A program made the translations under genes and the position numbers. Positions 19,055-53,662 of a DNA stretch of 64,000 nucleotides are shown in pieces. Positions within the stretch are counted from its first letter, which is position 1, and every line of letters starts with the position of its first letter. The DNA comes from Lingula anatina (taxonomy: Eukaryota; Animalia; Brachiopoda): NCBI GenBank assembly GCA_051362555.1, contig CM120642.1:32488001-32552000 (forward strand). The letters run 5' to 3'. The notes under the pieces were generated by a model. That model was not told the origin of the DNA. It searched no databases and was given only the letters and a program-made list of their open reading frames with translations.

Positions 19055-21085
19055 TACCCACCTGATCTAGCAGTCGCTGAGATGGTGACCTATTTTATCA
19101 ATGCTTCAATGGTATTTCTCCGCTACTCATTCCAAAAGCATGCCTTAGTGGAGATTGATGTTTCTGTTAAATGCAGGGGAAAGGTGGAATGCTGCTTTGG
19201 TGTCATCATTTCTTGCTTCTGTTTGCACAGTTGTAGCAAGAAGACCTGGGGTCTAGCACTTGGTGCTTTTAAACTATATACATTTCAGTGATGACAGTGG
19301 AATGTAAAGATTCTTATACTTTTCACAACTTCCTGCCACAGCTTAGGATTATGGGATACCTTCTGCTGCACCACTTGCTTCATCACCTGCAGGGACAAGC
19401 AGTGTAAATTGGAATTTATGTTTTTACCATTTTCGTGAAGATTTTGAGGAACGGCTAGGTATCATGTAATATGTGTCCAGTCACTGGACGCCAGAATACA
19501 GGATATGTAAAGCAGATACCATGTTTCTGCAAGTATTGCCAAGTCATTCTTTTATTGTGCAGTCTGACATGTACTTCTAATCTGGGTTATCAATTGCTTT
19601 TCTTGCTTACTGAGATCAGAGTGCCTGTTTTTTGTTTTGTTTTTTTCGTTAGTATAGATTTGTCTTTTAATTGCATATGACTCTGTGTTAATTTAACTTA
19701 GAGTTTTATTTTCTGTATTCTATTACTTTTACTAAAAAATCACTTCTCTTAAGTTGATTATATAGTTAGCATAATTGCTAAATTTCTTTATCTGCATAAA
19801 TGATAGGAAGTGTGTGATTTATAAGCTCCATCATTATTTTAAGGTGGTGTATTTTGATATAACTTACTACTAATTTACACTTTGATAAGGCGTGCTTTTT
19901 CATAATGAAATTTCAAGGTAATTATTCTTCCCAGTGACATTAAAATAAGTAACGCATTTTAGCTCAATATTATATTGTTGTTTGAAGAAACATTACTATG
20001 AATATTTTTCATGAACTGGGTACGTGTGCATAAGAATGAATAAAATGTGATATTTTAAAGAATTTTTTTTTGCTCAGATTAGTAAGAGAGAACGTTTAAG
20101 ATTATTTTATAATATGGCTCAGGTATTGATAACTACTGAAAGAATTTACATCATTTCCCATTACAACCATTACAAGGGCATCATCATCTGGGAAATTTTT
20201 TTAGGAACTAACCTCTGGTTATTTTAGTTCATTTCAAACCCTTTTCACACGTAGACTTTTTTATCCCCTATTTATTATGCTTGCAATGTAATAAATGTGA
20301 ATATTTTGATTATTATTATTATTATGTTGCTTTTATTTCCTTCACAGATGTGGGGCATTAATATTGTTCTTTTCCATATCATCCAATGCCTTTGTCTACC
20401 AATTAGCATTAATCAGGTTGATCAAATTACTTTCTAAAGCTGAAAGATTAAATGGGCAACATTTTTGTTGTCAAATTGATCGTTTTGTAACTGATTTGTA
20501 CAATATGACTTGGAAATGTCACCAAATATAAAACATTAAAAATAGATAACTTAACAAAATTAGTGAACAAGAAAGGAGCTAACAACTGATGTATTATACG
20601 AATTTTTGATCAGGTGAGGCTTGCAGAGTGAATGTAAGGCTGAAATGGAAATTTTATTTAAAAAAAAAACGAACATTTTGGAATAATTTCTTTTCAAAAA
20701 GACTTGCTGTAGCCTTACTTCATATACCATTCATCATTCTTTTGGAAAAAAAAAACTGAGTAAGTCGAGAATATTTTATTTACAAAAGTGCAACTGTATA
20801 AGACAAGGTTTGCTGTGGGCAGTATTGGTCAAAAATTGTTCAATGTGGAAAATAATGTAAGGTTATCTATTTAGATATGTTGAATTTGTAGAAAAAGGGA
20901 TATTATATTGACTTACAGATCATGGTGCTTGGCTAATATTTATACACTAATTTTGTAAACTTATTCTCAACATGTTACGGCTCACCTGAATGCTCGCTTT
21001 CTAGAGCACACTGTTCCATACTTCCAGGTAAATATTGATACTCTGTGCTAGTCATCACAAACCTCCTGTTAATACATGTAAAATA

Positions 21086-21332
21086 AGACTGGGCTCCCAT
21101 CCCTATAGATCTAACAGGATCGGTCCATCTCCACTGGTTTTCTCGCTAAATTGCTTTCACCTTAAGTGGCTAAGATGTCTGGCAAGCCTGCTAAAGCTGC
21201 TGAACAAAGGTAACTAATCTCTATCAGCATCATTAGGTATGATAGACGTCTAAGCCGCTTAAGTTAATTGCAGAATCCCCTTGGAGATAGTTCGATCCAA
21301 AGTTAGTTCTACATCTCTGAGAATGGTCTCTA
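21086..21332. mobile_element. Foldback MITE family 1 copy
   Basis: agatctaacaggatcggtccatctcc...cttggagatagttcgatcc. Similar to 10351 and 54423. Confidence 0.75.
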
Positions 21333-24250: not shown

Positions 24251-24453
24251 CTAAATGAAAATTATCAAACACACATCAAATACTTTTATACCATTAGCTT
24301 ACGGCCAACTTGGAGGGTCCTAGTCGCTATTTAATTACCACCTAGTGAGTATTAACATCTACTCACATCAGTCTGATGAAGGCCTACGTCCAGGCTGGCC
24401 ATAAGCTGATGGTATAAAAGTATTTAGGCTTGTGTTTGATTATTTTCGTTTTG
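24251..24453. mobile_element. Palindromic repeat family 3 with central ctgatgaaggcc core
   Basis: Long inverted arms (aaatacttttataccattagctta / taagctgatggtataaaagtattt). Related copies at about 37220-37375 and 61010-61115. Confidence 0.7.
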
Positions 24454-28239: not shown

Positions 28240-31200
28240 TTAGATCCTAGATCCTCTTTCATCACTTATTTCCCTGATTTTTACAAACATATATTTCATT
28301 GCCTCTTCGGACTGCCCCATGTTAAGAAGTACAGCACAAATTAAAATAAATACTACAGCAACATCAGGATGCTTGGGGCCTAGCAGTTCTTTTTTCAGTT
28401 TGTGGCATCTTTTTAAATATGGAAGTGCTCTTTTGTAGTCACCCATGGCTTGTAGTAAATCACCAATATTGTAGTACAAATGAGCAGTATGAAGGTGTTT
28501 GGGGCCTAGCACATCTTCTATCACTTCTTTGCTTTTTTTATAACAGTCAAGTGCCTCTTTGTACTCACCCATGTCTTTTAGTAAAGTGCCAATATTGTTG
28601 TATGAGGCAGCAGTATCAGGGTGTTTGAGACCTAGGATCTCTTCCCTTACTTCTAGACATTTTCTATGATAGTCGAGTGCCTCTTTGTACTTACCCATGG
28701 CTTTTAGTACATTGCCAATATTGCTGTATGTGGTAGCAGTATCAGGGTGTTTGAGACCTAGGAGCCCTTCTTGCACTTCCAGACATTTTTTATGATAGAC
28801 AAGTGCCTCTTTGTACTTACCTATGTCTTGTAGTACTCCACCAATATTGGTGTATGAGTAAGCAGTATAAGGGTGTTGGGGGCCAAGGACCTGTTCCCTT
28901 ACCTCCAGGCATTTTTTGTAATAGTCGAGTGCCTCTTCGAACTTACCTATGTCTTGTAGTACGTAGCCAATATTGTTGTATGATCTAGCTGTTTCAGGGT
29001 GTTTGGGACCAAGGAACTCTTCATTCACTTTCAGACATTTTTTATGATAGTCAAGTGCCTCTTTGTACTTACCCATAACTTCCAGTACACAGCCAATATT
29101 GTTGTAGGAGTAAGCAGTATCAGGGTGTTTGGGACCTAGGAGCTCTTCTCTTACATCTAATCCTTTTCTATGATAGTCAAGTGCCTCTTTGTACATACCC
29201 ATGTTTCTCAGTACATTACCAATACTGTCGTATGAGGAAGCAGTATCAGGGTGTTTGAGACCTAGGACCTCTTCATTTACCTGCAGGCACTTTTTAAAAT
29301 AGTCAAGTGCCTCGTTGTATTTACCCATGTTTTGTAGGACTTCACCAATGCTTCTGTCTGTTTTAGCTGTGTCAGGGTGTTTGGGACCTAGGAACTCTTC
29401 CTCTACCTGCAGGCATTTTTTAAGATAGTCAAGTGCCTCTTCGTACTCACCCATTTCTTGTAGTATTATACCAATATTGTAGTGTGATTTAGCTGTTTCA
29501 GGATGTTTGAGACCTAGGGACTCTTTTTTTTCTTCCAGGCATTTTCTGTGATATTCAAGTGCCTCTTTGTACCTACCTATGTGACTCAGTACATTACCAA
29601 TATTGTTGTATGAGGTAACAGTATCAGGGTGTTTGACACCAAGGACCTCTTCCTTTACTTCCAGGCATTTTTTATGATACCCAAGTGCTTCTTTGTACTT
29701 ACCCATGTCTTGTAGTACTCCACCAATATTGTTGTATGAGGTAGCAGTTTTACGGTGTTTTAGACCTAGGACCTCTCCCGTTACCTCCAGGCATTTTTTA
29801 TGATAGTCAAGTGCCTCTTTATACTTACCCATGTTTCTCAGTACACTACCAATATTGTTGTATGAGGCAGCAGTATCAGGGTGTTTGAGACCTAGGAACT
29901 CTTCCTTTACCTCCAGGCATTTTTTATAATACCCAAGTGCTTCTTTGTACTTACCCATGGCTTTTAGTACTCCACCAATATTGTTGTGCAATTTTGCTTT
30001 TTCCATTGGTTGACCTTCAAAAAACATGTTCATATCTACCTCAATTGATTGAAAAATCGAAAGAGCTTCTTGATTCAGAAATAGAAAATGGAATGTATTT
30101 GCAATCATTTGTAGGATATTGAGTTTGATTTTCTTCTGTTGTATGCCAGAAGTGCAGAGTTCCATTTTAAGCAAGGTGGCAGTCATGTGTAAATGGGGCA
30201 CCAGTTTTGACATATTTTCAAAAAGTGAAGCTTTAATATTTTGCACAATGTATAGCTGGAGCACACGACATATGTAATAATCACGGTATTTCTTTCGTGT
30301 GTGAGTGATTTCATTGTTGTCAGTTTGTGCAAGAAACTCTGCATACTCCTTCACCAAAGGATGCAGATCATAGGTATTTTGGACTAAACTCAAGAGTGAT
30401 TTAGCACTGAGATTGTCAAGGACAGATTCACATTCATCTTCATCCATCTCCAAAATCTCGGAGACTTCTTCTGAATTGAATGCAACAGGAAATATATGCA
30501 GTCCCCTTAACACCCTTTTCTCTGTGTCAGTCAGTGTTTCATAAGACATCTCTAAGCAGGTAAGCATACCTTGAGATGCTGGAATGTTAGGTAACTGAAG
30601 AGAGGGGAGGACCTTCATGCGGTTCATTTTCTCTAACACTTTTTGTACTGTTTTGAGCTTGATCTGGGTAGCTGCTAATTTTAATGCCAGGGGATTGTGG
30701 CCACATCTCTCTGATATTTCACCTAAAGCTTCTGTCTCACTATCTGTGGGGCTGATTGTATTTCCCCCCCAAAGGACTTCAAGTGAAGATGTTTTATCAA
30801 GGGGAGGGATGTCTATAGTAACTGTGGTTTGTGACAGAAGACTGAAGGATTCACGACTGGTGCATAAAAGAGTGATATGTTTTGATGAATTCATGACATC
30901 CTCCAGTAACTGCAGAAACTCTTGCTGGTGTGAATTCAAAACGCTGTCATTATTATCAAGGATAAGGAGAGTGTCTGTTGCTAAATTAGACATAGTTTGT
31001 GTAAATTTGTTCTGATAATCACAGTAAATATCTTTCAAAAACTGATTTGGGTGATAGTGCTGCACAAGTGATAATTTGACAGAATCAAGATTTACAACTT
31101 TTCTCATATCAATATGCAAGACATCTTTTTTGACATATTTTCTGTGATGTCCAACCTCAACAGCTATGCTTGTTTTACCTATGCCCCCCATGCCAGTCAG

Positions 31201-32691
31201 GAGAATGAGTTTTGTATCATTTTCAACATGCTGCAGTATTTTCTGCACCAGGTCCACTCGTCCCTTCAGCTCTGGAGTTCTACTAGGAAGGTCAGTAGAG
31301 ATGAGCTGACAAGGTGCTTCTGAAATTGAAAAGTAAACATGCAAGAAAAATCTTAACTTTAATGCATAAAAATGATTATATTAGAATTATAATTTCACAT
31401 TATTTAAATACTGGGGTAGAGTTTTGAAAGGTAGATTTGATGTTTTAAAATGAATGTCGGGGGAAATAAATTTTGTAGTTATTTCTAAACTCAATGTATC
31501 CTTCTTTAAAGGTACATACATGTACGAACCGAGCATCGGTGGAGCGTGGATTCCCATTAACACATGTAAACCACTTCTACTAGATTCTTAATTGACTCAA
31601 AAAAATTTGACATGCCAAGGGATAAACTGAATAGATCACTCGATCAGCCATAAAAGACCTTTAGACTGCTCCTTTCTTTAAATTTATGGTTGTAAATTTA
31701 ACCTACTTCCGTAACCTATTTTCCTTGCCCATTGAGATACAGCTTAGAATGCCAGCAGAAAAATCTGTTCAAACATCATTTTCGGGTAAAATTAAACAAT
31801 GCCTTTTGGTAATTCTCTTAGTTATACTACTTGAAACTATATGCTGGCATTTGGTTGGTTTCATGTGACTAAAAATTGACTTTGTATGCATCTTTAAGCT
31901 TATACCTTGTGGAATCAGCAGAGCACAATCCCAAGAGTACTACAAAGAACAGATCCTCTCGATTGCACATTTCTTCAAAGTACACTTGTGACTTTAAACT
32001 AAAAGTTTTCTTTATTTATATGCTGGTGGACAATCGGTATAATAGAGCACAGTCCCTCTTAGCCAAAAAGAGCAGTTTCTCTCACTATTTTTCATAGTAC
32101 ACTCGTTATCTGTTAAATATGTCATACCTGCTGCATGCAATGGATCAGTAAGCAACTTGTCATAGTCATCACTGCTGTAGATTGTGGACAGTGATAACAA
32201 CAAAGCTTTCAATTCTGTAAACTGGGTCTGAAATGCAGCATCTGTTAGACTGGCCCCCCGTGGGAAAATTTGTTGCGATATTTCTTCACTCTGCCAATCT
32301 GTGCCTCCATGGACATGTCAGTTGTCGGTGGATTCTCCCAACTGCCCTTTGGGTTTAGTGTTGTGATATTTCTTAACAAGACTACTGTAAGAGTCACATC
32401 TAAGTCCTTCAATGTCACAGTTGTGGAGGGATTCCCAGAAGGGTATAGAAGCTTCATTTGGCTTGCATTCAAAACTTTCATTTTTTTCAACTGTAGCAAA
32501 GTTTGATTTGCCTTTTGGTCAGTTAGAATATCAAACAACTTGCCACCATTTGAGGGATCAAACAACCCTGGATAAGTTGTTTGTAACTGTGTACTGAGGA
32601 CATCTTGAAGCACATCTTGTGATCGATGTATCAGTAGTCCCATACGCATTGTGTTTTCTATCTCATTACGTGGAGTGGCAGCAGTCGCCAT
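28240..32691 (-). CDS. NLR-like gene copy A: HEPN(DZIP3-type) - STAND NTPase - 13 TPR; 1-bp frameshift in the HEPN exon as assembled
   Basis: Exon 32691-32128 (564 nt, vs 565 in copy B), donor G|GTATGA, acceptor TTTCAG, exon 31319-28240. Walker A GMGGIGKT, Walker B LLILDN, CTSR, GHNPLAL, LHPLV. 13 full 42-aa repeats plus a degenerate cap. About 1214 aa if the frameshift at 32254-32259 is repaired. Confidence 0.88.
31506..31897. mobile_element. TTAA-flanked MITE (Kolobok/piggyBac-like) in the copy A intron
   Basis: ttaa-aggtacataca...tgtatgcatct-ttaa. The paralogous site in copy B (about 41890) is empty with a single TTAA. Confidence 0.85.
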
Positions 32692-33786
32692 TTTGTTTTA
32701 GGTCTGAAAAGAATAAATATCTCAGTGTGAAATAAGGTAAAGGTGTTGCTGGCTTTCATAAACCATCACAAGATAGTAGGAAATTTTGTTTTAATATTTA
32801 ATTTAAAGGGGGAGCCCTTCGAACATTTTTTCCTGGCCTTACAAAAAGCGATGTACATGTACTAGTTCTTCGGGAAAGACACAGCATATTGGTCCTGAAA
32901 TCTTTTTTTATTTCTTAAAAGCAAATTTGGCATGATTTGTCATTGGTAAAGGAATAATTAAGTTAATTTGAAATGATGAAACACGGGTCATTGTCTTAAA
33001 TTTAGTTAACTAAAAATGTTGTTTTTGGTTTTAAGAATATAGTTAATACATAAAGAAGTATTCAGAAGTAAAACAAGGAAGTATAGGATGAATTAATTCA
33101 GAAGTGAAACTAGGAAGTACAGGATGTACTAAGTTGGATCAGTATATAAATGTGATTATGCTGTATAGAAATGATTTGAGTATACACTAGCTAATATCTG
33201 GTGATAAAATTGTAAACAAATGGCTGTCTTAAACTCACCTGAGAATGGATAAAGAAATTCCTTGCTGGGAGCGAATGAGAACTACGCCTTTGTCACCTGA
33301 TGTAAGGTTGTCATGTGACATACGGGTATTCAAGGTCCAAAAGAATAACTTTTTTATGTAAGTGAAAGATTTAGCCACCAAAGTATGCAAAATCTGACTT
33401 TGAATCGGTAGCAAAGTCAATTTCTAATCACTGCCTTTCCTTCCTTGGAAAATGTTCAATTCCGTATCGGCATTAAACCACTTGACACAGAAATGCCGTC
33501 TTGTTGTTATCAGTAATGGCGCAGTTTTGTGGAGATTGGTTATTTACGTATCACCGGCCAAGTAGGTTACCTTAGGTCATGGTGTTCTTATCATTAATTT
33601 GACTGCAATTTGTTACAGTACTAAGTAGGTTAGCATTGTTGATTTGCTGCCTATAATATGGTTACTTCTTTTGGAGATTTTTTGCTACATTAAAGGGGAA
33701 AAAGAAATGCTGCGCTTCTGTGATTATATTATTGTTGTTGTTTTGGGTTTTGTTCTATAGTGCTATGAAAGACAAACACTCTGTTG

Positions 33787-34130
33787 TTAAAGGGATAATA
33801 ACTCTTCATATGAGATCTATATTTCACAATAAAAACATTGTGAATAACTCATAGAAATATAATATATTCTGTTTTACCTCAAAAACGGCAGTTATAGCTA
33901 TTATTCTGATATCTGAGCTTGTCTTTAGATGACGTAACCTCCATTGATGGCTATACTCTGTTAAAATCTCTTAAGAGAATTTAACAAAAAACAAACTTTT
34001 TAGAAAAAAACCAGGGACTAACTTTGAATGTAAAAATGGATTCATTAACCATTGGTAAGTATGAGAAAATTGTTGTTCACTGCAGGAAAATTCATTTTTT
34101 GGCCGAAACGAAGAGTTATTATCACTTTAA
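33787..34130. mobile_element. TTAA-flanked MITE (Kolobok-like)
   Basis: ttaaagggataataactcttc ... gaagagttattatcactttaa (1 mismatch). Lies within a segment absent from copy B. Confidence 0.8.
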
Positions 34131-37100
34131 ACAAGGACAATTTTTTACTTGAAATAATTTATCATTTCTCTGAACATGGTAGGCCTGCGCATAGTTAAAT
34201 CACTAGAAAAAGATAACATTTCACAATTCTCTTTCAGTCTTCCACACAGCCCCTTTTTTTTAAACAATTTGCACTTGCACTATGGATATACAATTATCCT
34301 AAATTCATCTTTTTCAGATATAACAGAAGAAAAATACTGGAGTTCATCCTTAAAAATCACTTGTCTTTTTAGCATTCCACTCCAGCATGTGAACTCCAGC
34401 AGCCATTTTTCCCATCACACATGGGCAGCATGAAACTGTGGAGTTTTCATCGTCCTCCCCTCAAAAAGTATTCCCATGGACCCATGTCTCAGCAAAGACC
34501 ACAGGTCATACTGCCTCTACTGAAAACTATAAGAAGGAAGGCAAAGGTGAGTTCTGGTTGATGGTTTTAGAAGTAAAACCACACAGATATGTACTCATGT
34601 TATTGTTGCTTGGTTTTGATCCTTTTTTTAAGTCAAAAAGTGTGTGATATTAATCTACCAGTACTGGTAGAATGGTAAAAACCAACCTTGACTCTACCAC
34701 AAAATAACAGGCCAGTGTCCAAATTGTCTTTTTTTTCAAAGTTTGTCAAGTGTGTCTTCTGTCAATTTTTTTTTTTTTTTATCAGTAATGGTAACAATCC
34801 TTGTTCTGACATGTTACTAGTCTTTCTCAACCTGTCATTTAAGACGTCAAATAAATTAATATATTTTTTTAGTAAAACTTTCCCAATGCTGGCTTTATTT
34901 CTTTTATAATTTTGATGTTGACATAAAATAAATTCAGTTAAGTTTACATTAAGATAAAGTTCCTGTCTGGCTAATATTATTATGGGTTAAATAAACTTTG
35001 TAGATATAATGTTCACTTTTTAAAAATTTAAAAATTGAGCCCAGTTCCTATGATGATGCATTTTGGCTGCTGGTTAATTTGATACTGGTCAGACTGTTGT
35101 ATATTATAACAAAGTGCATATTAAGCTATATCTTTTCACGCTTGTATATTTATGTATAAATGCAGTAGTATCTCTGCATATTCCAATTACCTACTTCTGT
35201 TTGGCACTGCTGGAACAGGAGCAGGGCACATTTCTTGTTACTGTATATACAGCTGTTTGACTTAGAACTTACAGGAATTACTCAATGTTATAAGATCTTG
35301 GGAGTGATTTGTGTATTCATGATATTTTTTCTGATGTTTTCAGAAGAAAATTTTGATCTTGATGCTGAATTTACGTGGCAGTCTGTGGCTCTAGACAGGG
35401 ATTAAAAAGATTATAAATTGCACTGTATTTCAGCAGTTACAATTCCAACTATAAATATAAGAAAAATAGTATATGCACATCAGCTTAGTTTGAAGCAAAA
35501 TCTTTATCTTTTGAATCAAGAAAAAAGTTGGTATACTTTTCAAAGCAACATTTATTACATAAATTTCACCTCCATTAAAAGTGACACTTAACCATTTGCA
35601 TTTGAGAAAGTGTTACATTAGAAATCTTAATTGTAGGTAAGTGGTATGCATGTTGTACATAAGTAATGCTCAGATTAAGAATAAGATGTTCATGGCATGG
35701 TAAAACTGTCAGTCCTTCAGTCTCAGACTGATAGTAGGCCTTCAGGACTGGTAAGAATGAGGTTCAAGTAAATTCTCTTGACTGAGAATAAATATTCTTT
35801 TAATTTGTTATAAACCATATTTATTTCGCTTTTAAGTTTAATATAATTGAAATGTTAAAAACCGATGCTTATTCATTTGGTCTGACAGTGTCCATAATTT
35901 TATAAGTTCATAACTAATGTGATTGTCAATACTAAATTTCTAAGAATAACATAATGACTATTGGTAGTAAATATAGTAATTTCCAACTTCTAAATATGAA
36001 ATGATTACAGTACATATGTTGAGTAAATAAAATATATGTATATGAATTTATATACATTCATTTTTTTAAAAATGAAAGAATACCCATCATAATTTTTGAA
36101 AACAAAGCAATGGCAATAACTATCCCCAAATAGATAAACTTAATATTTGTAATCTGCATTTGATTTCCATCCACAGTATATGGAGCATTCCAATTTAATG
36201 GACATACTAGTAAGCTTTGTGTACTGATGCACACCAGTGTCGTTTCACTTTATTTATTATTACTTAATAAACAGGTTATGTTCTCTTACATGTCGCAGAT
36301 ATGAATAAATACACAGATATCTCAATAATAAACAACAGTATGAAAACTATGCAACATTAATTGCATAGTAGATAATAATTATTAATACCATTAGTTGCTT
36401 CAGTTTCAGCAAGGCTAAATATATAATTAAGGAAACACTGAAAAATATTTCCTAATGATTTGAATATACCATTAATATAGACATTTGATCACCCAACTGA
36501 TATTTATTATTTAACCAAATAAATGTGTAAATATATGCATGTGCAGATACAAACTCACATTTAACACTCTCCAACATGAAGTTCTAACAATAAAGTTTAC
36601 CATCAAATATACAAACAAAAATACATTTCAACTCTTCAGTTATGAAAGAAAATCCTGGCACAAAGTGTGGTTCTTTTGACACCCTCCCCTCTCCCCCTGA
36701 GCTCCCTCGGCTTCATTAAAACATAAAAACCTTTGTTAAACCACCACTCAATAGTTAAATTATCAGTTAATGAACTACCAGAATTATCCCACTGATAAAG
36801 TGACCTCTTATTAATACATAGTGTTTTCAGTCTATGGTGTTTGTGTTTCCACTCTGGTTCTCAACAGTAGAAGTCCAGTGTGGGCTCAGATCAATATCCT
36901 GTTGTTTTTATTCTGCAGTCTCACATGTAGGGGCATATAGTGTACACTTTTAAGATGGGACTGGTTGCAGAAGTAAACAGTGAATTATAACTATCATAAC
37001 TATGATTATTCAAGTTTTCTGCTATTTTATATCCACACACAGTGACACTTAGGTGTAAACTCTTACTAATTATACAGAAATAAAATCATTTTAATATTAT

Positions 37101-37633
37101 AAAGACAAAAATCTTATATTAAGCACCACATTCACATAGTTATATGTTCCATATTTACACACACAAAATGATTAATAAGTCAGCAAAAATGTTCATTAGT
37201 TTACTGGTTGGATCATACATAAAAATTATCGGACACAAGCTGAAATATTTTCTTCACCGTTAGTTTAACCAGTGAGTGTAACATCTACTCACATCAGTCT
37301 GATGAAGGCCTTTGACCAGGTTGGCAGTAAGCTAAAGGTACGGAAAATATTTCGGCCTGTGTCTGATCATTTTTAAGTATGATTAATAAGTCCTTTGGGG
37401 GGGGGGGGGATATGAGTTAGCCATGCACCCACTCAATTATGTAGTTATTATGGCTGTGCTCAAACAAAGAATAAAATACACTAACTAGTTGTTCTCCACA
37501 GTATACATATCCTTGAGATTTTCGGGAGGAATTCTCGTAGAAGTTAAGACTACAGATAAATTTCAAAAGAGGTTAAGAATATATAGAAACATAGAGAATT
37601 AAGGACTACAGAGATATTTTCTGAAGAAGTAAG

Positions 37634-37635
<2 letters not shown>

Positions 37636-37700
<65 letters not shown>
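37636..37700. repeat. (TA)n microsatellite
   Basis: Seen directly. Short at the paralogous position near 27776. Confidence 0.95.
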
Positions 37701-37701
<1 letters not shown>

Positions 37702-38273
37702 GGGAGAAGTTATATCTATGGATATATTCTTGTAGAAGATAAATATGGATTAATAGATGAAGACTGCCAAAAGGCAGAACAAATTTTGGCATAAGTATAT
37801 AAGCTTAGCACCTAGCTATGCTTTATTTCATGGGCACAATTGGGGTGAAGAAAGTTAAGATGTGCAGTTACATATTTGAAGTGTACTGCATGTAAAGAGA
37901 CTAAATGCCGGCATTTTCAACATATTCAACATACATCTGTCTTGAAAGTTCAACCCCCTTGTAGAATAATAAATTTTTCCCATTGTGTTGAGTAACACTT
38001 TAAATTACAGTTTCATGTGTTTTGAAGAGTTACATTACAGAACGTGTCCATTTTTTAAGCATTCAAAGCTTGCAATACACATCCAACATTATTATTATGA
38101 GTCAGTAAAAAAGGGTGTTTGCAGTCTTACACCTATTCCCTAATTTTCTTCCATTTATTTGTATATGCAAGCTTTTTTTTATTCACCCATTTATTCCAGT
38201 ACTTCCCTGGTATTGTTGTATCAGGTAGCCCTTTAAGAATGTTTAGATGCTAGACTCTCTTTCCTCACTCATT

Positions 38274-41200
38274 TCACTGATGTTTTTTAACATATTCTAC
38301 TGCCTCTTTGAACTGACCCATTTTTTCAAGTAAAGTAACAATTAATTTACATACCATATCAGTATTAGGGTGTTTGGGACCTAGGATCTCTTTTCTCAGT
38401 TTGTGGCATCTTTTTAAATATGGTAGTGCTCTTTTGTAGTCACCCATGATTTGTAATAAGTAACCAATATTGCCATACAATTGGGCAGTTTTAGTGTGTT
38501 TGGGGCCTAGCACCTCTTCCATCACTTCTTTGCTTTTTTTATAATAGTCAAGTGCCTCTTTGAACTTCCCCATGTCTTTTAGTGTCATACCAATATTGTT
38601 GTATGAGGTAGCAGTATCAGGGTGTTTGGGACCTAGCAGCTCCTTTTTCAATTTGAGGCATCTTTTTAAATATGGAAGTGCTCTTTTGTAGTCACCCATG
38701 GCTTTAAGTACATTACCAATATTGCCATATACTTGGGCAGTAGTAGGGTGTTTGGGGCCTAGCACATCTTCCATCACTTCTTTGCTTTTTTTGAAATAGT
38801 CAAGTGCCTCTTTGTACTCACCCATGTCACTCAATACATTACCAACATTGTTGTACGAAACAGCAGTATCAGGGTGTTTGGCACCTTGTAGCTCTTCTCT
38901 CACTTCTAGGCATATTTTGAAATTGTCAAGTGACTCTTTGTACTTTCCCATGGCTTGAAGTGAATAACCAATATTGTTATATACAGGAATAGTGTTTAGG
39001 TGTTTGGGGCCTAGTTCAAGTTCCATCACTTCTTTGCTTTTTTTAAAATAGTCAAGTGATTCTTTGTACTTACCCATGCCTTGCAATACATTACCAACAT
39101 TGTTGTATGTGGTAGCAGTATCGGGGTGTTTGGGACCTAGCAGCTCTTCTTTCACTTCCAGGCATTTTTTGAAATTGTCAAGTGACTCTTGGTACTTACC
39201 CATGGCATTAAGCATATAGCCAATGTTATTGTATGACACGGCAGTATGAGGGTGTTTCGTACCAAGAAGCTCTTCTCTTATTTCCAGACATTTTTTATGA
39301 TAGTCAAGGGCCTCTTTGAACTTACCCATGGTTTTCAGTGTACAAGCAATATTGTCGTATGAGGTAGCAGTATCAGGGTGTTTGGAACCAAGAAGCTCTT
39401 CTCTTACTTCCAGACATGTTTTATGATAGTCAAGGGCCTCTTTGTACTCACCCATGTCTGTCAGCATACAAGCAATATTGTTGTATGAGGTAGCAGTATC
39501 AGGGTGTTTGGAACCATCAAGTTCTTCTCTTACTTTCAGACATTTTTTTTGGTAGTCAAGGGCCTCTTTGTACTTACCCATGGTTTGCAATGCATCACCA
39601 ATACTGTTGTATGAGGAAGCAGTATCAGGGTGTTTGGGACCTAGAAGCTCTTCCCTTACTTCCAGACATTTTTTTTGATAGTCAAGGGCCTCTTTGTACT
39701 TACCCATGGTTTGCAATGCATCACCAATACTGTTGTATGAGGAAGCAGTATCAGGGTGTTTGGGACCAAGAAGCTCTTCCCTTACTTTCAGACATTTTTT
39801 TTGATAGTCAAGTGCCTCTTCGTATTTACCCATGGCTTTTAATGCACAACCAATATGGCCGTATGTGGTAGCAGTTTCAGGGTGTTGGGGACCAAGAAGC
39901 GCTTCTCTTACTTCCAGACATTTTTTATGGTAGTCGAGTGCCTCTTTGTACTTCCCCATGCTTTGTTGTACTCTACCAATATTGTTGTATGAGGTAGCTG
40001 TGTCAGAGTGATTTATACCTAAGAGCTCTTCCCTTATTTCCAGACATTTTTTATAATAATCATGTGCCTCTTTGTACTTTCCCTTGTCTAAAAGTAAAGC
40101 ACCAATATTGTTGTATGAGTTAGCAGTATCAGGGTGTTTGGGACCTAGGAGCTCTTCCCTTACTTTCAGAGATTTTTTATGATAGTCAAGGGCCTCTTTA
40201 TACTTTCCCATGGTTTGCAGTACAACACCTATATTGTTGTATGAGGTAGCAGTATAAGGGTGTTTGGGACCTAGAAGCTCTTCCCTCACTTCCAGGCATT
40301 TTTTGTAATATTCAATTGCCTCTTTGTACCTACCCATGGCATGCAGTACACAGCCAATATTGTTTTGCAATTCTGCTTTTTCAGTTGGTTGACCTTCAAA
40401 TTTTGTGTGCATTTCTACCTCGACTGACTGAAAAATCGAAAGAGCTTCTTCATTCAGAAATAGAAAATGGAACGTATTTGCAATCTCTTGTAGGATATTG
40501 ATTTTGATTTTTTTCTGTTGTATGTTAGAAGTGCAGAGTTCCATTTTAAGCAATGTGGCAGTCATGTGTAAATGGGGCACCAGTTTTGACATATTTTCAA
40601 AAAGTGAAGCTTCAACTGTATCCACAATGTATAGCTGGAGCATAAGCCTTATGTAATAATCACAGTATTTCTTTCGTGTGTGAGAGATTTCATTGCTGTC
40701 AGTTTGTGCAAGAAACTCTGCATACTCCTTCACCAAAGGATGCAGATCATAGGTATTTTGGACCAAACTCAAGAGTGATTTAGCACTAAGATTGTCAAGG
40801 ACAGATTCACATTCATCCTCATCCATCTCCAAAATCTCTGAGACTTCTTTTGAATGGAATGCAACAGGAAATATATGCAGTCCCCTAAACACCTTTTTCT
40901 CTGTGTCATTCAGTGTTTCGTAAGACATCTCTAAGCAGGTAAGCATACCTTGTGATGCAGGAATGTTAGGTAACTGAAGAGAGGGGAGGACCTTTATGCG
41001 TTTCATTTTCTCAAACACTTTTTGTACTGTTTTGAGCTTGATCTGGGTAGCTGCTAATTTTAGTGCAAGGGGATTGTGGCCACATTTCTCTGATATTTCA
41101 CCTAAAGCTTCTGTCTCAGTATCTGTGGGGCTGATCGTATTTTCCCCCCAAAGGACTTCACTTGAAGATGTTTTACCAAGAGGAGGGATGTCTATAGTAA

Positions 41201-42692
41201 CTGTGGTTTGTGACGGAAGACTGAAGGATTCACGACTGGTGCATAAAAGAGTGATATGTTTTGATGAATTCATGACTTCCTCTAGTAACTGCAGAAACTC
41301 TTGCTGGTGTGAATTCAAAACACTGTCATTATTATCAAGGATAAGGAGAGTGTCTGTTGCTAAATTAGACATAGTTTGTGTAAATTTGTTCTGATAATCA
41401 CTGTAAATATCTTTCAAAAACTGATTTGGGTGATACTGCTGCACAAGTGATAATTTAACAGAATCAAGATTTACAACTTTTCTCATATCAATATGCAAGA
41501 CATCTTTTCTGACATATTTTCTTTGATGTCCAACCTCAACAGCTATGCTTGTTTTACCTATGCCCCCCATGCCAGTCAGGAGAATGAGTTTTGTGTCATT
41601 TTCAACATGCTGCAGTATTTTCTGCACCAGGTCCACTCGTCCCTTCAGCTCTGGAGTTCTACTTGGAAGGTTAGTAGAGATGAGCTCACAAGGTGCTTCT
41701 GAAATTAAAAATAAACATGCAAGAAAGATCTTAACCTTCATGCAAAAAAAAAAAAAAAGATTATATTGAAATTTTAATTTTACATAATTTAAGTATTGGG
41801 GTAGAGGTCTGAAAGGTAGATTTCATATTTTAAAACGGACGTCTGGGGAAATGAATTTTGTACTTATTTCTCAACTTAAATATCCTTCTTTAAGTTCATA
41901 CCTTGGGGAACAAATCAGCAGAGCACAATCCCAAGTGTACTGTGAAGAATAGTTCCTCTCATTGTGCACATTTCTTCAAAGTACACTGATGACTTTAAAC
42001 TAAAAGTTGTCTTTATTTATATGCTGTGGACAGTCAGTATAATAGAGCACAGTCCCTCTTAGCCAAAAAGAGCAGTTTCTCTCACTATTCTTCATAGTAT
42101 ACTCGTTATCTGTTAAACATTTCATACCTGCTGCATGCAATGGATCAGTAAGCAACTTGTCATAGTCATCACTGCTGTAGATTGTGGACAATGATAACAA
42201 CAAAGCTTTCAATTCTGTAAACTGGGTCTGAAATGCAGCATCTGTGAGACTGGCGCCCCCATGGGAAAATTTGTTACGGTATTTCTTCACTCTGCCAATC
42301 TGGGCTTCCATGGACGTGTCACTTGTTGGTGGATTCTCCCAACTGCCCTTTGGATTTAGTGTTGTGATATTTCTTAACAAGACTACTGTAAGAGTCACAT
42401 CTAAGTCCTTCAGTGTAACAGTTGTGGAGGGATTCCCAGAAGGGTATAGCAGCTTCATTTGACTTGCATTCAAAACTTTCATTTTTTTCAACTGTAACAA
42501 AGTTTGATTTGCCTTTTGGTCAGTTAAAATATCAAACAACTTGCCACCATTTGATGGATCAAACAACCCTGGATAAGTTGTTAGTAACTGTGTACTGAGG
42601 ACATCTTGAAGCACATCTTGTGACCGATGTATCATTAGCCCCATACGCATTGTGTTTTCTATCTCATTCCGTGGAATGGCAGCAGTCGCCAT
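38274..42692 (-). CDS. NLR-like gene copy B (intact, 1329 aa): HEPN(DZIP3-type) - NB-ARC-like STAND NTPase - 16 TPR
   Basis: Exon 42692-42128 (565 nt; DLDVTLTVVLLRNI..GSWENPP..D.S..AQIGRVKKYRNKFSH) splices in phase 1 (G|AA = Glu) to exon 41698-38274 (3425 nt), giving 3990 nt open. Same NTPase motifs as copy A. 16 full 42-aa repeats (YNNIG.VL..MGKYKEALDY.KKCLEVREELLGPKHPDTA) plus cap. Probable 5' UTR exon donor at 43258. Confidence 0.92.
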
Positions 42693-45411
42693 TTTGTCTT
42701 AGTTCTGGAAAAATATAATGTCTCAGTGTGAAACAAGGAGGCACTGGTGAAGGTGTTGCTGGCTTTTGTAAACCACCACAAGTAAGTGGGAAATTTTGCT
42801 TGAACACTTAATTAAAAGAATGAGCCCTTTGTACATTTACCTGTCTTTAGAAAAGTCATACTAGTTCCTTGGGAAAGACATGGCATATTTTATTCAGGTG
42901 GTCCTGAAATCCTTTTCTTTTTAAAGAAATTAAAATTTCTTAAAAGCAAATTTGGTACGAATTGTCATTGGTAAAGGCATAATTAAGTTAATTTAAAACG
43001 ATGAAACATGAGTCATTGTCTTTCATTACTACAAAATGCTGAGAAAATTTTGGTTTTAAGAATATTATGAATAGATAAAGAAGTATTCAGAAGTGAAACA
43101 AGGAAGTACAGGATGAATCCAGAATTGAAACTTGCAATTATAGGATGTACCAGGTTGGATCAGTATATAAATGTGATTACTGTATAGAAATGATCTGAGT
43201 GCACACTAGCTAATATCTGGTTATAAAATTTTTAATAAATTGCTGTCTTAAACTCACCTTGAAATGGATAAAGAAAAATATTGTTGGGGCGAATGAGAAC
43301 TACGCCTCTGTCACCTGATGTAAGGTTGTCATGTGACATATGGGTATTCACGGTTAAAAAGAATTACTTTTTATCTAAATAAAAGATTAGCCACCAAAGA
43401 ATGCAAAATCTGACTTTGAATTGGTAGATAAAGTCAACTTCTAATTAAACTTTCCTTCCTTGGAAAATGTTCAATATTGTATCGTCATCAATTTAAACTA
43501 TTTGACATAGAAATGTCACCTTGTTGTTATCAGTAATGACGCAGTTTTGTGGAGATTGGTTATTTATCACAGGCCAAGGAGGATACGTTAGGTCATGCTG
43601 TTGTTATCATTAATTTGACTGCAATTTATGTTACAGTACTAACTAGGTCAGCAGTGCTGATTTGTTATCTATGGGTACTTGTTTTGGAAATTTTTTGCTA
43701 CACTTAAGGGGGAAAAAGAATCCTGGGGATCAACTTAAAAAATCACTTGTCTTTTTAGCATTCCACTCCGGCTTGTGAACTCCGGCAGCCATTTTTCCCA
43801 ACACACATGTGCAGCATGAAACTGTGTAATTTTCATCGTCCTCCCCTCAAGAAATATTCCCATGGACCTTTGTCTCAGCACAAACCACAGGCCGTACTGC
43901 CTCTACTGAAAACTATAAGAAGGAAGGCAAAGGTGAGTTTTGGTTGATGGTTTTAGAAGTTAAATCACACAGATACGTACTCATCCTATTGTTGCTCTGT
44001 TTTGATTTTTTTTAATTCAAAATGTGTGATATAAGTCTACCAGCACTGTTAGAATTGTAAGTACAATTTCATTAAGCTGATACATAAGTTACAAAAAGGT
44101 ACAAAATAAACCTTCCATCTTTGTGTCTGTGGATGTCTATGTCAGTTTGCATTGTTTGTATTAGACATAAGTTAAACCTGCTAACAAAGCTTAAGTAAAG
44201 GTAAAAATGATTTAAGTAGGTTTTTAAAGAGTGTCCAGTTAAATTAAGTAATGATAATCTTTGACTTCCAATTTATAAATGTTACTTTCAGATGAGAGAA
44301 CATGAGCGACTGGCCTTTGAAGGAGGCGAGATGTTTCTCCTGAGAACCCCGCAAGATCTCACAGGGATGGATGGAGAGCTGATTTTGGCCGAGTACTCTG
44401 AGGAATTCCCACCTAGCCTCATGCAAGTTGATATGGCAACCAAGATAAGGAATTACTACATGTACAAAAGGGTATCTTTCTTTTGTAATGTTTGTTAGTG
44501 TTTTCCCAACTGTTAAGATCCTTTTCACTAAAACATCACATTTAGGTGATGTTAGTTTCATCTTGGAATATACTTTGAAGACGAGTGGTTTCTAAAACAT
44601 AAATAAATAAACTGAAAATATAGCACTTCAAGTTAGGTTTTTAATAAAATATACTGGAATCCCGAAACATCACCCCCATCTCTATGTGAAACTCTTGGAC
44701 ATATGTAACTAGCCTAACTGTCACTCCTTTACTGATATGACTCGGGTCCTAGGAAAAATTGAAAAATAAAATTAAATAATAGATTAATGAATAAAATGGA
44801 GTAAACGGAAAAATCAGCAAAATGCAAAAGGTCAGGGGGGAGGCAACCAAGGACCTATTAATATTGAAAAGTATATTAATCGGGTCGTCCATCGGTCCTA
44901 AAATGTAATTACGCTTTTACCCTCTATTTCTAAATTCTCCACAAGTTCCCATCTGCTGTTAAGGATGATCCGTATAGGCGACTCTTGTACATATTACGTT
45001 TACATATTATTTTACATATCAGGCTATAATTTAAGTAACCTGTCTCTCAAAAAGGAGTGCCCACTTAAGTGTACTAGTACCTCTCGAGGTGGAGAGGCCC
45101 TCGGGCGAGGACGGGATAGATCCATCAATCCCGCGTCTTATGATGCGTCTTTTTTATTGAGTTATATAAGTCTGTGGTAATTCTGTAGTTGGACAACGTC
45201 TCAGAGAGCCTATGAATATGAACAAGTTTAATGCTGGATACAATTGGATGCAATTGTTATAATTGTTATATTAAAGGTAATTAGTGATAAGTTACAACGA
45301 TAAGGGACTGTCCGACTTCCATATCTCTTTAAGATCATAGATAACACGTCTGAGGGGCATATGTCATGTAAGTCACACTGGTTTGTATTTCAATGGTGAC
45401 GCAGAGAAAGC

Positions 45412-48074
45412 ATGGCACGACTTAAACAACTCCATCGTATATTTGTTGTCGGATCAATATTTGCAGTCACGTTATATCTTGTACACGTAACAGTCCAAAA
45501 CAATATACATGTATTTTACCGTGATTCTCTCCAACGTGGGACACAGAAAGGTGAGTTTGTATTGAAGTTTACTGCTTTGTGGTGATGACCGATCGAGAAG
45601 ATGTGGAAGATTTCTAAATCATAATGAAAACATTTCAGCTTTTCTAAAAGGCACATATATTTTTAGGCGTATGCGTAACGAGCGTTACTGAGCAAACAGC
45701 ATCATTTATGACCTGTTCATTTTTTGTTTTTAGTGAAAAGGGTGCATTGATATAAATGTGACGTATTTTGAGTCAGAAAATTGCTTTCATAGTGAGATAA
45801 TGCATTACAATGGTTTTAGAAAGAACAAAATCAATATAACGTAACTCTCATTTTGTTTATTTTAGACGAATACTCAGATCTGAAAAGAGATTCACAGATT
45901 GAAAAGAAACAGGTAATATTTCTATGAAATCTGCGCTTACAGTGTAGGTGACATTCCAAAATTTGCCTTAGCGTAATGAGGCTGTTTTATTTCTTGCTCT
46001 TCTCTGCACGTAAAAGATTTCCTAAAAAGATTTAGTATCGTTCCTGTGGTGTTTGGTACTTAAATCGGAGTCCCAAGGCATGGCGTTTGAAATACAGTAA
46101 ATGGACGTTTTGGATGTACTGTTTAATGGATAATGGTCATTTTTCCATGTATCGCCAACTTGTTTTATTAGATCTTAGTTTATATATATAATAAGGGGGG
46201 TGGAGAGGAGTTACGACTCAGTCCTCCTTTATCAGTCTACATCAGTCATAAGCAGAAGATGAAGGGGTAATTAGGCAGTGGGAATCAAACCCTTCTCACC
46301 GTCTCTATTACTTTTTTTGATTTTGAAAGGATACCTGCCTCCCAACACACACACACGCACACACGCACATACACGCACACACACACACACACACGAAACC
46401 TGTTTCCTGCGCTCTGTGCTCTTGAGTAGACCTACACTCTAGGTGAAGTGACGTGTCAATGATGGGGATAATAATAATAATAATAATGATTAAACAATAA
46501 AAACTCAGTAATGGGAATGAATTTCCTTTGCATGATTCGGGGTGTATAGTGGCTTACAGCTATTTGGATGGCTGTAAGCCAGTGATATTATCAAGCGGCG
46601 CCTACAGAAAAGACGCGGGAGTTTGTATGACAGCCTACGGTTAACAGGCCTAATGCATACTGACACACACCTTGAAAACGGGTAGTGTGGTCTGATGTAC
46701 CGGTGAATTCAGGATCATTCGTTGCCGAGTCTGGTAGTTGGGTAGGCCTGGTCAAGGTGTCAGTTTCAACATCTGTTAAATAAAAATTAAAACGTATTTG
46801 AACCTAACCCCCCTTAACAAAATTATTTTTTCCAGACAAGCGTGGACCAGAGTCATTCTGTTTTTTCTCGATGGGATGCCATGGAACTCAGGGATGTGTC
46901 TGTTTTTGGGAAACACAGGCAGAAGAAAGGTCTAGAATGCTGCACTATCTATCTATCTATCTATCTATCTAACCAGATTTCCTAAACTGTACATATCTTA
47001 TTTTTTAATGAACATTTTTCAATATATAACTGCTTTCAGATGCAATCAAACTGTTTTCTCCTTGCACCAAGTTTAACAATTTGAGAAAAAAAGACAAACT
47101 TTTGAAGAACAGAAAAAATGTTTAATTCTCTATGTTATCTCTGTATACATACATTTTACGGTACATACATTTTACGGTACTGTCCTGTGTTATCATTCAA
47201 CTTTAAACTATCTAATATTAACAGTTGGTTAATATTTCTCAATTGAAATGTTTCAGGTTTTCTTACCATTGGTATTCCGTCTGTCAAACGAGCAAAGGGG
47301 ACCGTGTATCTGTTGCAGACGATTTCTTACATAATAAACATGACGTCACCAAGTGAGAGGGTGAAAATTGTTTTATTGGTGTACCTGGCAAATTTTGATA
47401 CACAATACAATGAAAATGTCTTGAAAAGTATCAGCGCAAAATTTGATGATTTCATCAAGAGTGGATTTATTCTAGTGATGCAAGTTCCAGAAAAAAATTA
47501 CCCTCCGTTAGAAAATTTGAAGAGGAATTATAATGATTCTCCGGAGGAAGTAAAATGGCGATCGAAACAGAATGTTGATTATGCTTTTATGTTTCTGTAC
47601 GGAAGAAATATATCAGAGTACTATATTCAGATTGAAGACGATGTGATTCCAGCCCGTGGATTCACCAAAGACGTACGTGCTTTTATCATAGAAAATAGCA
47701 AAAAGCCATGGATATGTTTAGAATTTTCCATTCTTGGATTTATTGGGAAACTGTTCAAATCCAAAGACTTGGAAAAATTTGCAAGGTACTTGATTTTATT
47801 TTACGACGAGCAACCTTGTGATTGGCTTATCAATCATTTCCTAACTTCGATGACTCAGAAAAAGCGCATCTTCCAGCATGCGGCATCCAGGGGGACTGGT
47901 CTTCCTCGGAAGAAAAGTCCAGGAAAGGACCTAATATGTCGCGGGACATTTACTTCAAAGATAAACAAGGAAAAACCACTCAAGGGGCGCCAAAAGGAAA
48001 GTCGTGACTTGCAATTACACTTCTGTAGCTTAATACAAGGAGCAAAAACGTTCTTCCAAAATATTTTTAAGTAA
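45412..48074 (+). CDS. MGAT4C: MGAT4/GT54-like N-acetylglucosaminyltransferase, copy 1, frameshifted near the C-terminus (possible pseudogene)
   Basis: Exons 45412-45550 (signal anchor), 45866-45912, 46836-46929, 47257-48074. Motifs FLTIGIPSVKR, WRSKQNVDYAF, YYIQIEDDV, LEFS.LGFIGKLF, QPCDWL. Net 10-nt loss at about 47870 relative to copy 2. The homologous tail (QGDWSSSEEKSRKGP) continues in another frame to 48007. Confidence 0.85.
46345..46394. repeat. (CA)n microsatellite
   Basis: Seen directly. Confidence 0.9.
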
Positions 48075-53000: not shown

Positions 53001-53662
53001 TATTACTGGTATTCCTAGCAAATTTTGATACAAAATATAATGAAAATGTCTTGAAAAATATAAGCGCCAAATTTGATGACTACATCAAAAGTGGATTTAT
53101 TCTAGTGATGCAAGTTCCAGAAAGCAACTACCCCCCATTAGAAAATTTGAAAAGGAATTATAATAATTCTCCGGAGAAAGTAAAATGGCGATCGAAACAG
53201 AATGTTGATTATGCTTTTATGTTTCTGTACGGAAGAAATATTTCAGAATACTATATTCAGATTGAAGACGATGTGATTCCCGCTCTTGGATTCTTCGAAG
53301 ACATACGTGCCTTTATTTTAGCAAATGACAAGACTCCATGGATATGCTTAGAGTTTTCAGTTCTTGGATTCATAGGGAAATTGTTCAAGTCCAAAGACTT
53401 GGAGAAACTTGCAAGGTACTTGATTTTATTTTACGACGAGCAACCTTGTGATTGGCTTATTCTCCATTTCCTAATGTCAATGACTCAGAAGGAACATATC
53501 TACCACAAGCAGTCTTTATTCCAGCATCAGGGTGAATGGTCTTCTTCGGAAGAAAAGTCGAGGAAAGGACCTAAAATAAAGCTTGACATTTACTTCAAAG
53601 ATGGTAAAAATAATCAGACAATAGGTGCAAAAAGAAAAGTGAAAATTAAAATCCCACGTTGA
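50025..53662 (+). CDS. MGAT4C: MGAT4/GT54-like N-acetylglucosaminyltransferase, copy 2, intact, 345 aa
   Basis: Exons 50025-50145, 51133-51179, 52377-52470, 52887-53662 (1038 nt, open). Same exon phases as copy 1. Type II TM anchor, EDD motif, SLFQHQG. Confidence 0.9.
50190..50615 (-). mobile_element. 3' end of an RTE-clade (Rex3/Expander-like) LINE, decayed
   Basis: Translation ...KKMLGMKPPGERKQRRPVERFMDAIKGDMQ..WRQIIRCGDP* resembles the RTE ORF C-terminus, followed by a GAA-rich tail. Confidence 0.8.
50650..50938. mobile_element. MITE family 5
   Basis: TIR cactggcggat...atccgcctctg. Related copy at 58081-58409. Confidence 0.75.

What the first reader, a model, noticed from the sequence alone, without database searches (positions are those of the whole stretch)
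28240..42692. Tandem animal NLR-like receptors: HEPN ribonuclease effector + STAND NTPase + TPR sensor
Seen: the short ORFs at 42692/32691 and the long ORFs below them are each one gene, joined by an in-phase GT-AG intron (copy B gives 1329 aa). The N-terminal exon carries the DITLL..LLRN..GW..P..D.S....R....RNxxxH pattern with RNKFSH intact. Established: this pattern is the DZIP3-type HEPN family, and R-x4-H is the HEPN RNase catalytic motif that acts on dimerisation. Effector-STAND-TPR is the layout of fungal NLRs and bacterial Avs antiviral proteins, not of canonical animal death-fold/NACHT/LRR NLRs. Inference: a ligand-gated RNase immune receptor, in which TPR sensing drives STAND oligomerisation, HEPN dimerisation and RNA cleavage or cell death. 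HEPN-STAND fusions have been predicted computationally in invertebrates, but I know of no functional characterisation of this form.
Basis: partly seen in the sequence, partly recalled or inferred. Interest (0 to 1): 0.9.

Follow-up and report, generated by a model that had tools for sequence, protein, structure and literature searches.

The report
Brachiopod RNase-headed NLR-like receptor pair
Two neighbouring spliced genes, likely from a lamp shell (brachiopod) and one of them frameshifted as assembled, join a predicted RNA-cutting head to an ATPase switch and a fast-changing repeat tail, so they likely act as intracellular immune sensors that would destroy RNA when triggered; this layout is already catalogued in corals but appears untested.

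Summary
The domains are real. Copy B is a 1329-aa HEPN_DZIP3 + NB-ARC + 16×42-aa TPR gene with intact RNxxxH and STAND motifs. RNA reads cross the predicted intron exactly, but they come from an A/B-like allele or paralog, not B itself. The closest homologs are Lingula anatina RefSeq proteins, 11 with this layout. The HEPN head is under purifying selection (dN/dS 0.08), while TPR positions 2 and 9 show diversifying selection, as expected for an immune sensor. The layout is not new: coral gene tables list it, human SAMD9 is a characterised animal RNase-STAND-TPR, and this scan noted similar genes twice in other genomes. Added here: the Lingula HEPN appears to be a mobile phase-1 exon also fused to Roc-COR, paired with NB-ARC apart from corals. 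RNase activity, ligand and oligomer are untested.

The parts
42128..42692 (-). Copy B first coding exon: DZIP3-type HEPN domain (188 codons + 1 base, phase 1); R139-N140-x3-H144 at 42278-42261
   Evidence: PF18738, E 2.5e-32; model pLDDT 91
41699..42127 (-). Copy B 429-nt GT-AG intron between HEPN and STAND
   Evidence: RNA joint 41698/42128 in 46 (X18) and 37 (X19) reads; same join in RefSeq model P0001
40692..41698 (-). Copy B NB-ARC/AP-ATPase-type STAND module (NBD, HD1, winged helix): Walker A GMGGIGKT 41573-41550, Walker B, sensor-1 TSRE, GxPLAL, YDLHPL
   Evidence: AfsR, Roq1; 6mfv, CED-4
38274..40391 (-). Copy B TPR array, 16 units of 42 aa (126 bp), and stop
42705..43257 (-). 5' UTR intron upstream of copy B (553 nt)
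   Evidence: joint 42704/43258 in 6 (X18) and 12 (X19) reads
32128..32691 (-). Copy A first coding exon: HEPN with intact RNKFSH (32277-32260) but a one-base frameshift in the G run 32259-32254 and a stop at 32247-32245 as assembled
31320..32127 (-). Copy A 808-nt GT-AG intron, enlarged by a high-copy repeat at about 31520-31890
   Evidence: (joint 31319/32128; very high depth over the repeat)
30013..31319 (-). Copy A STAND module and helical linker, open frame, motifs intact
28240..30012 (-). Copy A TPR array, 13 units of 42 aa plus a degenerate cap, and stop

Best explanation
These are two tandem copies of a spliced gene encoding a HEPN-NB-ARC-TPR protein that likely works as an intracellular immune receptor with a built-in, normally silent ribonuclease. 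Shown: the three domains, intact catalytic and ATPase motifs, splicing and polyA expression of a close allele or paralog, a conserved head and a diversifying TPR surface. Inferred from STAND and HEPN biology: at rest the TPR tail and nucleotide-bound NB-ARC keep the protein monomeric; binding of a foreign or damage-linked protein to the TPR groove would trigger nucleotide exchange and oligomerisation; this would pair HEPN heads into the composite RNxxxH site, which would cut cellular RNA (tRNA, rRNA or mRNA), halting translation or killing the cell. Copy B is intact. Copy A is a frameshifted allele or an assembly error in a G run; if real it is probably a null through nonsense-mediated decay.
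For: Domains above Pfam cutoffs. RNxxxH in 10 of 11 HEPN-bearing Lingula STAND paralogs and the P-loop in 11 of 12; R[NDH]x3-5H in 43 of 47 aligned HEPN heads. A vs B dN/dS: HEPN codons 1-143 0.08 (5 non-synonymous, 16 synonymous), NBD 0.42, HD1-WHD 0.37, post-WHD linker 0.99. Across 27 TPR units a positive-selection model beats the neutral one (LRT 18.5, p about 1e-4, omega 2.2; TPR positions 2 and 9 at posterior 0.999 or more), as in fungal NB-ARC-TPR NLRs (PMC4986451 passages). Lineage-specific expansion of 12 or more models. The full model's best structural match is the STAND-TPR protein 6mfv (E 9e-15), with CED-4 and the NRC4 resistosome lower down. The four top Foldseek rows for the head are HEPN nucleases, Csm6 and AbiF. 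HEPN catalysis needs dimerisation (10.64898/2026.05.28.728550 passage). SAMD9 shows that an animal STAND can carry a latent, infection-activated RNase (PMC10246899 passages).
Against: Nothing here measures RNase activity, ligand binding or oligomerisation, and I found no biochemical test of any DZIP3-type HEPN. The fold matches of the head are not significant (best Foldseek E 0.27; best VIA Z 6.4, mixed with unrelated helical bundles). The reads that prove splicing carry A's base at 29 of 35 checked sites and B's base at about 9 others, so B itself is not shown to be expressed. The selection test used my own codon model with fixed relative branch lengths, and exchange between repeats can inflate it. 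Some relatives have lost the motif (P0010, P0011, Montipora P0075/P0200), so catalysis is not universal. One paper holds that TPR-type NLRs seem not to be involved in PAMP recognition (PMC6321704 passage). No infection-induction data were seen.
Confidence: 0.6

Rival explanations
1. Immune or stress receptor whose HEPN head does not cut RNA but binds RNA or serves as a homotypic docking domain, like a death fold, to recruit other HEPN-bearing proteins.
For: The same HEPN family sits on many unrelated partners in Lingula (Roc-COR, CARD-NACHT, IIGP, CARD), as adaptor domains do. Motif-less members exist. HEPN domains lacking the motif are thought to be RNA-binding (PMC3710099 passage).
Against: R139, N140 and H144 are among the most conserved columns of 47 heads and are kept in 10 of 11 paralogs.
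Confidence: 0.17
2. Self/non-self (allorecognition) or guard receptor: same RNase output, but the TPR reads polymorphic host proteins rather than pathogen products, as fungal het NLRs do.
For: The repeat type (kinesin-light-chain-like 42-aa TPR) and selection pattern match fungal NLRs tied to non-self recognition.
Against: Lingula is a solitary animal with no described fusion-incompatibility system (recalled); bacterial STAND-TPR receptors sense viral proteins (abstract).
Confidence: 0.13
3. Non-immune protein, e.g. a nephrocystin-3-like or kinesin-light-chain-like cargo adaptor, as the RefSeq name 'nephrocystin-3-like' suggests.
For: TPR_NPHP3 hits at 303 bits and KLC TPR structural matches.
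Against: These hits cover only the TPR array. The ATPase is NB-ARC type, closest to AfsR and plant NLRs. The family is a lineage-specific expansion with diversifying repeats and a HEPN head.
Confidence: 0.05
4. For copy A only: the frameshift is a true pseudogenising allele of the sequenced animal rather than an assembly error.
For: Birth-and-death turnover is usual in such families. In X18 only 21 of 52 reads are listed with the extra base (13 rows of that table were hidden).
Against: The break sits in a G run, the classic long-read error site. The only contigs over it in DNA runs X2 and X4 carry the extra base (1 contig each, possibly collapsing paralogs). Laid on B, no deletion reached 10% of reads there. 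The rest of A is open for 1026 codons and its HEPN is under purifying selection.
Confidence: 0.35

Closest known systems
Coral DZIP3-like HEPN / NB-ARC / TPR genes (orthogroup OG0000193, Noel et al. 2023, PMC10236652)
   Same: Identical domain order; 8 of the first 30 of 323 HEPN rows in Additional file 17 read HEPN, NB-ARC, TPR. Montipora P0075 and unnamed ENA proteins with this layout were retrieved.
   Different: The Lingula genes form their own clade in both HEPN and STAND trees, and one clade of NB-ARC-fused HEPNs is rejected. They have long arrays of near-regular 42-aa TPRs. Neither group appears functionally tested.
Bivalve HEPN-NACHT NLR-like genes (Pinctada fucata, PMC9646362) and other invertebrate HEPN-NLRs (PMC8662601)
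   Same: N-terminal DZIP3 HEPN with Rx4H, tandem expansion, proposed RNase role.
   Different: NACHT rather than NB-ARC; mostly LRR or WD40 sensors.
Human SAMD9/SAMD9L and bacterial Avs9
   Same: STAND-TPR protein with a latent N-terminal RNase that is activated by infection: the best functional model.
   Different: The effector is Schlafen-like AlbA_2, not HEPN; extra SAM, SIR2 and OB domains; not homologous in the effector.
RNase L / IRE1 (KEN-type HEPN)
   Same: Animal HEPN-family RNases (PMC3710099 passage) switched on by ligand-induced dimerisation (mechanism recalled).
   Different: Ankyrin or lumenal sensor plus kinase fold; no STAND ATPase.
Fungal NB-ARC-TPR NLRs and bacterial Avs / AfsR-type STAND-TPR proteins
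   Same: Effector-STAND-TPR layout, KLC-like repeats with selected groove positions.
   Different: Other effectors; no PADLOC Avs model matched the HEPN or STAND parts.

Membership tests
DZIP3/hRUL138-like HEPN (PF18738) | Profile match above the gathering score | tested here: met
   112 bits vs cutoff 27 (B); 88 bits (A, truncated)
DZIP3/hRUL138-like HEPN (PF18738) | R-phi-x3-H motif at the end of the third long helix | tested here: met
   R139-N140-K-F-S-H144 at the end of helix 128-143; nearly invariant in 47 heads
HEPN ribonucleases | HEPN fold by structure comparison | tested here: inconclusive
   Top Foldseek rows Csm6 and AbiF at E 0.27-0.92; about 15 of 50 VIA rows are HEPN proteins (labels partly recalled) at Z 4.9-6.4, none at 8 or more
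HEPN ribonucleases | Dimer with composite active site | not tested
HEPN ribonucleases | R/H-dependent RNA cleavage | not testable with these tools
   needs biochemistry
STAND NTPases, NB-ARC/AP-ATPase clade | Walker A, Walker B, sensor-1 hhhTSR, GxP and MHD-like motifs with HD1 and winged helix | tested here: met
STAND NTPases, NB-ARC/AP-ATPase clade | Ligand-triggered, nucleotide-dependent oligomerisation | not testable with these tools
   needs purified protein and ligand
NLR in the broad sense (effector-STAND-repeat) | Tripartite layout in one spliced product | tested here: met
   for B; broken as assembled for A
NLR in the broad sense (effector-STAND-repeat) | Diversifying selection on the sensor repeats | tested here: met
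   M2a vs M1a LRT 18.5 on 27 repeats; exchange between repeats not modelled
Canonical animal NLR (death fold-NACHT-LRR) | NACHT domain and LRRs | tested here: not met
   NB-ARC and TPR, no LRR or NACHT among the listed Pfam hits (best 25 shown)
SAMD9/9L family | AlbA_2 (Schlafen-like) effector | tested here: not met
   The N-terminal exon matches only HEPN_DZIP3
Nephrocystin-3 orthologs | NPHP3-type N-terminal ATPase, not only the TPR tail | tested here: inconclusive
   Only TPR_NPHP3 is among the 25 of 45 families shown; the ATPase scores as NB-ARC; no tree with NPHP3 was built

The most novel reading that the evidence does not exclude
In Lingula one HEPN exon, ending in phase 1, is a plug-in RNase half-site that has been shuffled onto different self-associating NTPase switches (NB-ARC-TPR, Roc-COR, LRR-Roc). 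Brachiopods and corals would then have built HEPN 'RNase resistosomes' independently, giving animals an Avs-like arsenal of rapidly re-targeted TPR sensors wired directly to RNA destruction, possibly with mixed HEPN dimers integrating signals from different sensors.
Probability: 0.3. Interest if true: 0.75.

Novelty: new member of a known kind. Interest (0 to 1): 0.4.

Why it matters
If the mechanism holds, invertebrates have a large family of one-protein immune receptors that couple pattern sensing directly to RNA cleavage, parallel to SAMD9 and bacterial Avs proteins but with a HEPN effector. The architecture is already catalogued, so the value here is a clean test case: an intact two-exon coding sequence with all motifs, a 188-aa head that can be assayed alone, and mapped variable TPR positions. 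It would also be the first activity test of a DZIP3-type HEPN that I could find.

Tried and rejected
No whole genome is held, so the genome-wide count rests on RefSeq-named proteins. No PDB sequence match for the head. No indexed RNA holder was listed; 2026 raw RNA runs were laid instead. The HEPN homodimer model was not available, which says nothing for or against binding. Foldseek and VIA gave no significant fold match for the head. PADLOC gave only a generic TPR hit. The codon fit on six groove columns alone gave omega 16 with kappa 10.6; I rejected it as unstable and used the site model instead. The STAND tree is FastTree only, and the Lingula clade sits on a long branch in an open fork, so no donor or horizontal transfer is claimed. 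Gerdol et al. 2018 on Lingula immunity is not held and may already list these genes. Searches for a functional study listed none; one search was uninformative and one search matched nothing because of term format. A sequence look-up of earlier findings gave nothing. Rejected: that A encodes a free, always-active HEPN; its product would lack the last two helices (151-168, 174-182 in the model) and the stop is 117 nt before a junction.
Full report
Observation. Two long minus-strand ORFs (28240-31380, 38274-41822) each lie below a short ORF. For copy B, the exon 42692-42128, a 429-nt GT-AG intron and the exon 41698-38274 give 1329 aa. Pfam finds HEPN_DZIP3 in the first exon (112 bits), NB-ARC (35 bits) and 16 TPR_10 stretches in the second. 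The repeats have a 126-bp period, 15.9 copies in B and 12.4 in A. The pair comes from a tandem duplication of about 9-10 kb.

Copy A is broken as assembled. Its first exon is one base shorter than B's in a G run directly after the His codon, and the frame stops at 32247-32245. The only contigs covering the site in DNA runs X2 and X4 carry the extra base (one contig each); X1 does not cover it; 21 of 52 X18 reads are listed with it, with 13 rows of the table hidden. Laid on B, no deletion reached 10% of reads at that place. An assembly error in a homopolymer is somewhat more likely than a private null allele, but contigs may collapse paralogs.

Expression. RNA runs X18 and X19 (one study) cover both exons and not the intron, with 46 and 37 reads across 41698/42128 and a 5' UTR intron at 42704/43258; X12 and X15 gave only 36 and 8 reads and no joint. 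The 45 X18 reads across A's junction are probably the same molecules. Most reads are 90-99% alike. Of 35 coding-region sites taken from the 40 rows shown (288 more hidden), 29 carry A's base, while about 9 sites carry B's base. So splicing and expression are shown for a close allele or paralog, not for B itself. RefSeq model P0001 has the same join and is 100% identical to B over exon 1 and 99.7% over the STAND.

Family. The HEPN search returned 12 proteins, 11 named Lingula anatina, which makes a brachiopod source likely. The STAND search returned 43, the top 12 from Lingula, 11 of them with PF18738; these are gene models and may include alleles. RNxxxH is kept in 10 of those 11 and the P-loop in 11 of 12; Walker B, sensor 1, GxP and the MHD-like motif are conserved. 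The STAND is of the NB-ARC/AP-ATPase type: its solved relatives by sequence are AfsR, an RPW8-NLR and Roq1. The model of P0001 (pLDDT 91) matches the STAND-TPR structure 6mfv best, then KLC-type TPRs, CED-4 and NRC4.

Head. The model is all-helical with pLDDT 91 and the motif at the end of helix 128-143. The four top Foldseek rows are HEPN nucleases, but none is significant. VIA lists many HEPN proteins at Z 4.9-6.4 among unrelated bundles. The fold test is therefore inconclusive and the assignment rests on the Pfam profile and the motif, which 43 of 47 aligned heads keep. No dimer model was obtained.

Selection. Between A and B, dN/dS is 0.08 for HEPN codons 1-143, 0.42 for the NBD, 0.37 for HD1-WHD and 0.99 for the following linker. 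Among repeat units the most variable columns are TPR positions 2, 9 and 13 in my register (28 units). On 27 units (A's degenerate last unit and both first units left out) a site model with a selected class fits better than a neutral one (LRT 18.5, p about 1e-4, omega 2.2); positions 2 and 9 have posterior 0.999 or more, while 37, 10, 31 and 13 lie at 0.83-0.95. That positions 2, 9, 12 and 13 line the TPR groove is recalled; fungal NB-ARC-TPR NLRs show selected sites on the concave side of the same repeat type (PMC4986451, passages). The test is my own implementation and ignores exchange between repeats.

Modularity. A search of 1.84 billion representatives (best 150 listed) found HEPN-NB-ARC-TPR proteins from Montipora and unnamed ENA records, and Lingula HEPNs on CARD-NACHT, IIGP and CARD (29 of the 150 were scanned). 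In a tree of 50 HEPN rows, all Lingula heads group together whatever their partner, apart from the coral-type set (100/98), and a Roc-COR-linked head (P0007) nests among the STAND-TPR heads. On 43 rows, one clade of NB-ARC-fused heads is rejected (p-AU about 1e-77, quick tree). All 16 Lingula proteins of this HEPN subgroup have E, D, G or V (G-initial codons) right after the head, against 0 of 7 in the other subgroup, which fits a shared phase-1 exon end reused with different partners. The Roc-COR fusions rest on gene models only. The STAND tree of 172 rows puts the 13 Lingula rows in one long-branched clade outside the coral group. Independent assembly or head replacement in brachiopods is likely, not proven.

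Mechanism. Likely: TPR groove binds a ligand, the NB-ARC switch oligomerises, HEPN heads pair and cut RNA. Each step is inferred. HEPN catalysis through a dimeric composite site is stated in 10.64898/2026.05.28.728550 (passages); latent, infection-activated RNase activity of an animal STAND is shown for SAMD9 (PMC10246899, passages; PMC12680541, passages).

Prior knowledge. PMC3710099 (passages) lists DZIP3 HEPN fused to TPR, NACHT, CARD and others in animals and HEPN-STAND-TPR in bacteria. PMC10236652 (passages; supplement rows) tabulates HEPN/NB-ARC/TPR genes in corals: 8 of the first 30 of 323 HEPN rows; 5 of its 17 supplementary files were not searched. PMC9646362 (passages) reports more than 50 HEPN-NACHT genes in pearl oyster; PMC8662601 (passages) HEPN-NLRs in nine invertebrate taxa, untested; PMC8195603 (passages) HEPN fusions in cnidarians and brachiopods; PMC6321704 (passages) NB-ARC-TPR in placozoans; two bacterial STAND preprints mention HEPN only briefly (passages). 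Searches listed no functional study of a HEPN-STAND protein in animals; subscription papers, Gerdol 2018 among them, and bioRxiv supplements were not seen. Two earlier notes of this scan describe the same layout in other genomes.

Verdict. A real gene pair of a known, predicted kind. One copy is intact and one is frameshifted as assembled. The evolutionary signs fit an immune RNase receptor; the activity is untested. New member of a known kind, interest 0.4.

Noticed in passing
window 47247-48074 and 52880-53662 (+): Two duplicated exons with the MGAT4 conserved region (PF04666, 244 and 256 bits, 84% identical DNA): a second tandem duplication, of an N-acetylglucosaminyltransferase-like gene.
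   Followed up: partly
window 1149-1535 (+): Exon-like ORF that reads like the end of a PH domain protein (PLEKHJ1-like; recalled); no Pfam hit at E 0.001.
   Followed up: partly
window 13674-14153 and 14271-14708 (+): Two exon-like ORFs with coiled-coil and low-complexity character and no Pfam hit; probably parts of one host gene.
   Followed up: partly
window 10351-10605, 21082-21331, 54430-54692, 24253-24451, 3933-4049: Dispersed, self-complementary elements of 200-260 bp, MITE-like.
   Followed up: no
window about 31520-31890 and 33786-34000: Very high-copy repeats (contig depth 10^5-10^6, also in polyA RNA); the first accounts for copy A's longer intron.
   Followed up: no
window 41651-41656 (RNA reads of X18, X19): A minority transcript class (7 of 77 and 10 of about 60 reads) lacks 1+4 bases near the start of the STAND exon relative to B; a paralog or allele, possibly an alignment artefact of an in-frame change.
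   Followed up: no
proteins P0007, P0011, P0051, P0052 (Lingula RefSeq): DZIP3 HEPN fused to Roc-COR, LRR-COR, interferon-inducible GTPase (IIGP) and CARD-NACHT: each partner is a nucleotide-driven self-associating switch (self-association recalled).
   Followed up: partly
window copy A vs B, exon 1 vs STAND: Synonymous divergence differs threefold along the gene (dS 0.19 HEPN, 0.05 NBD), suggesting gene conversion between copies.
   Followed up: no
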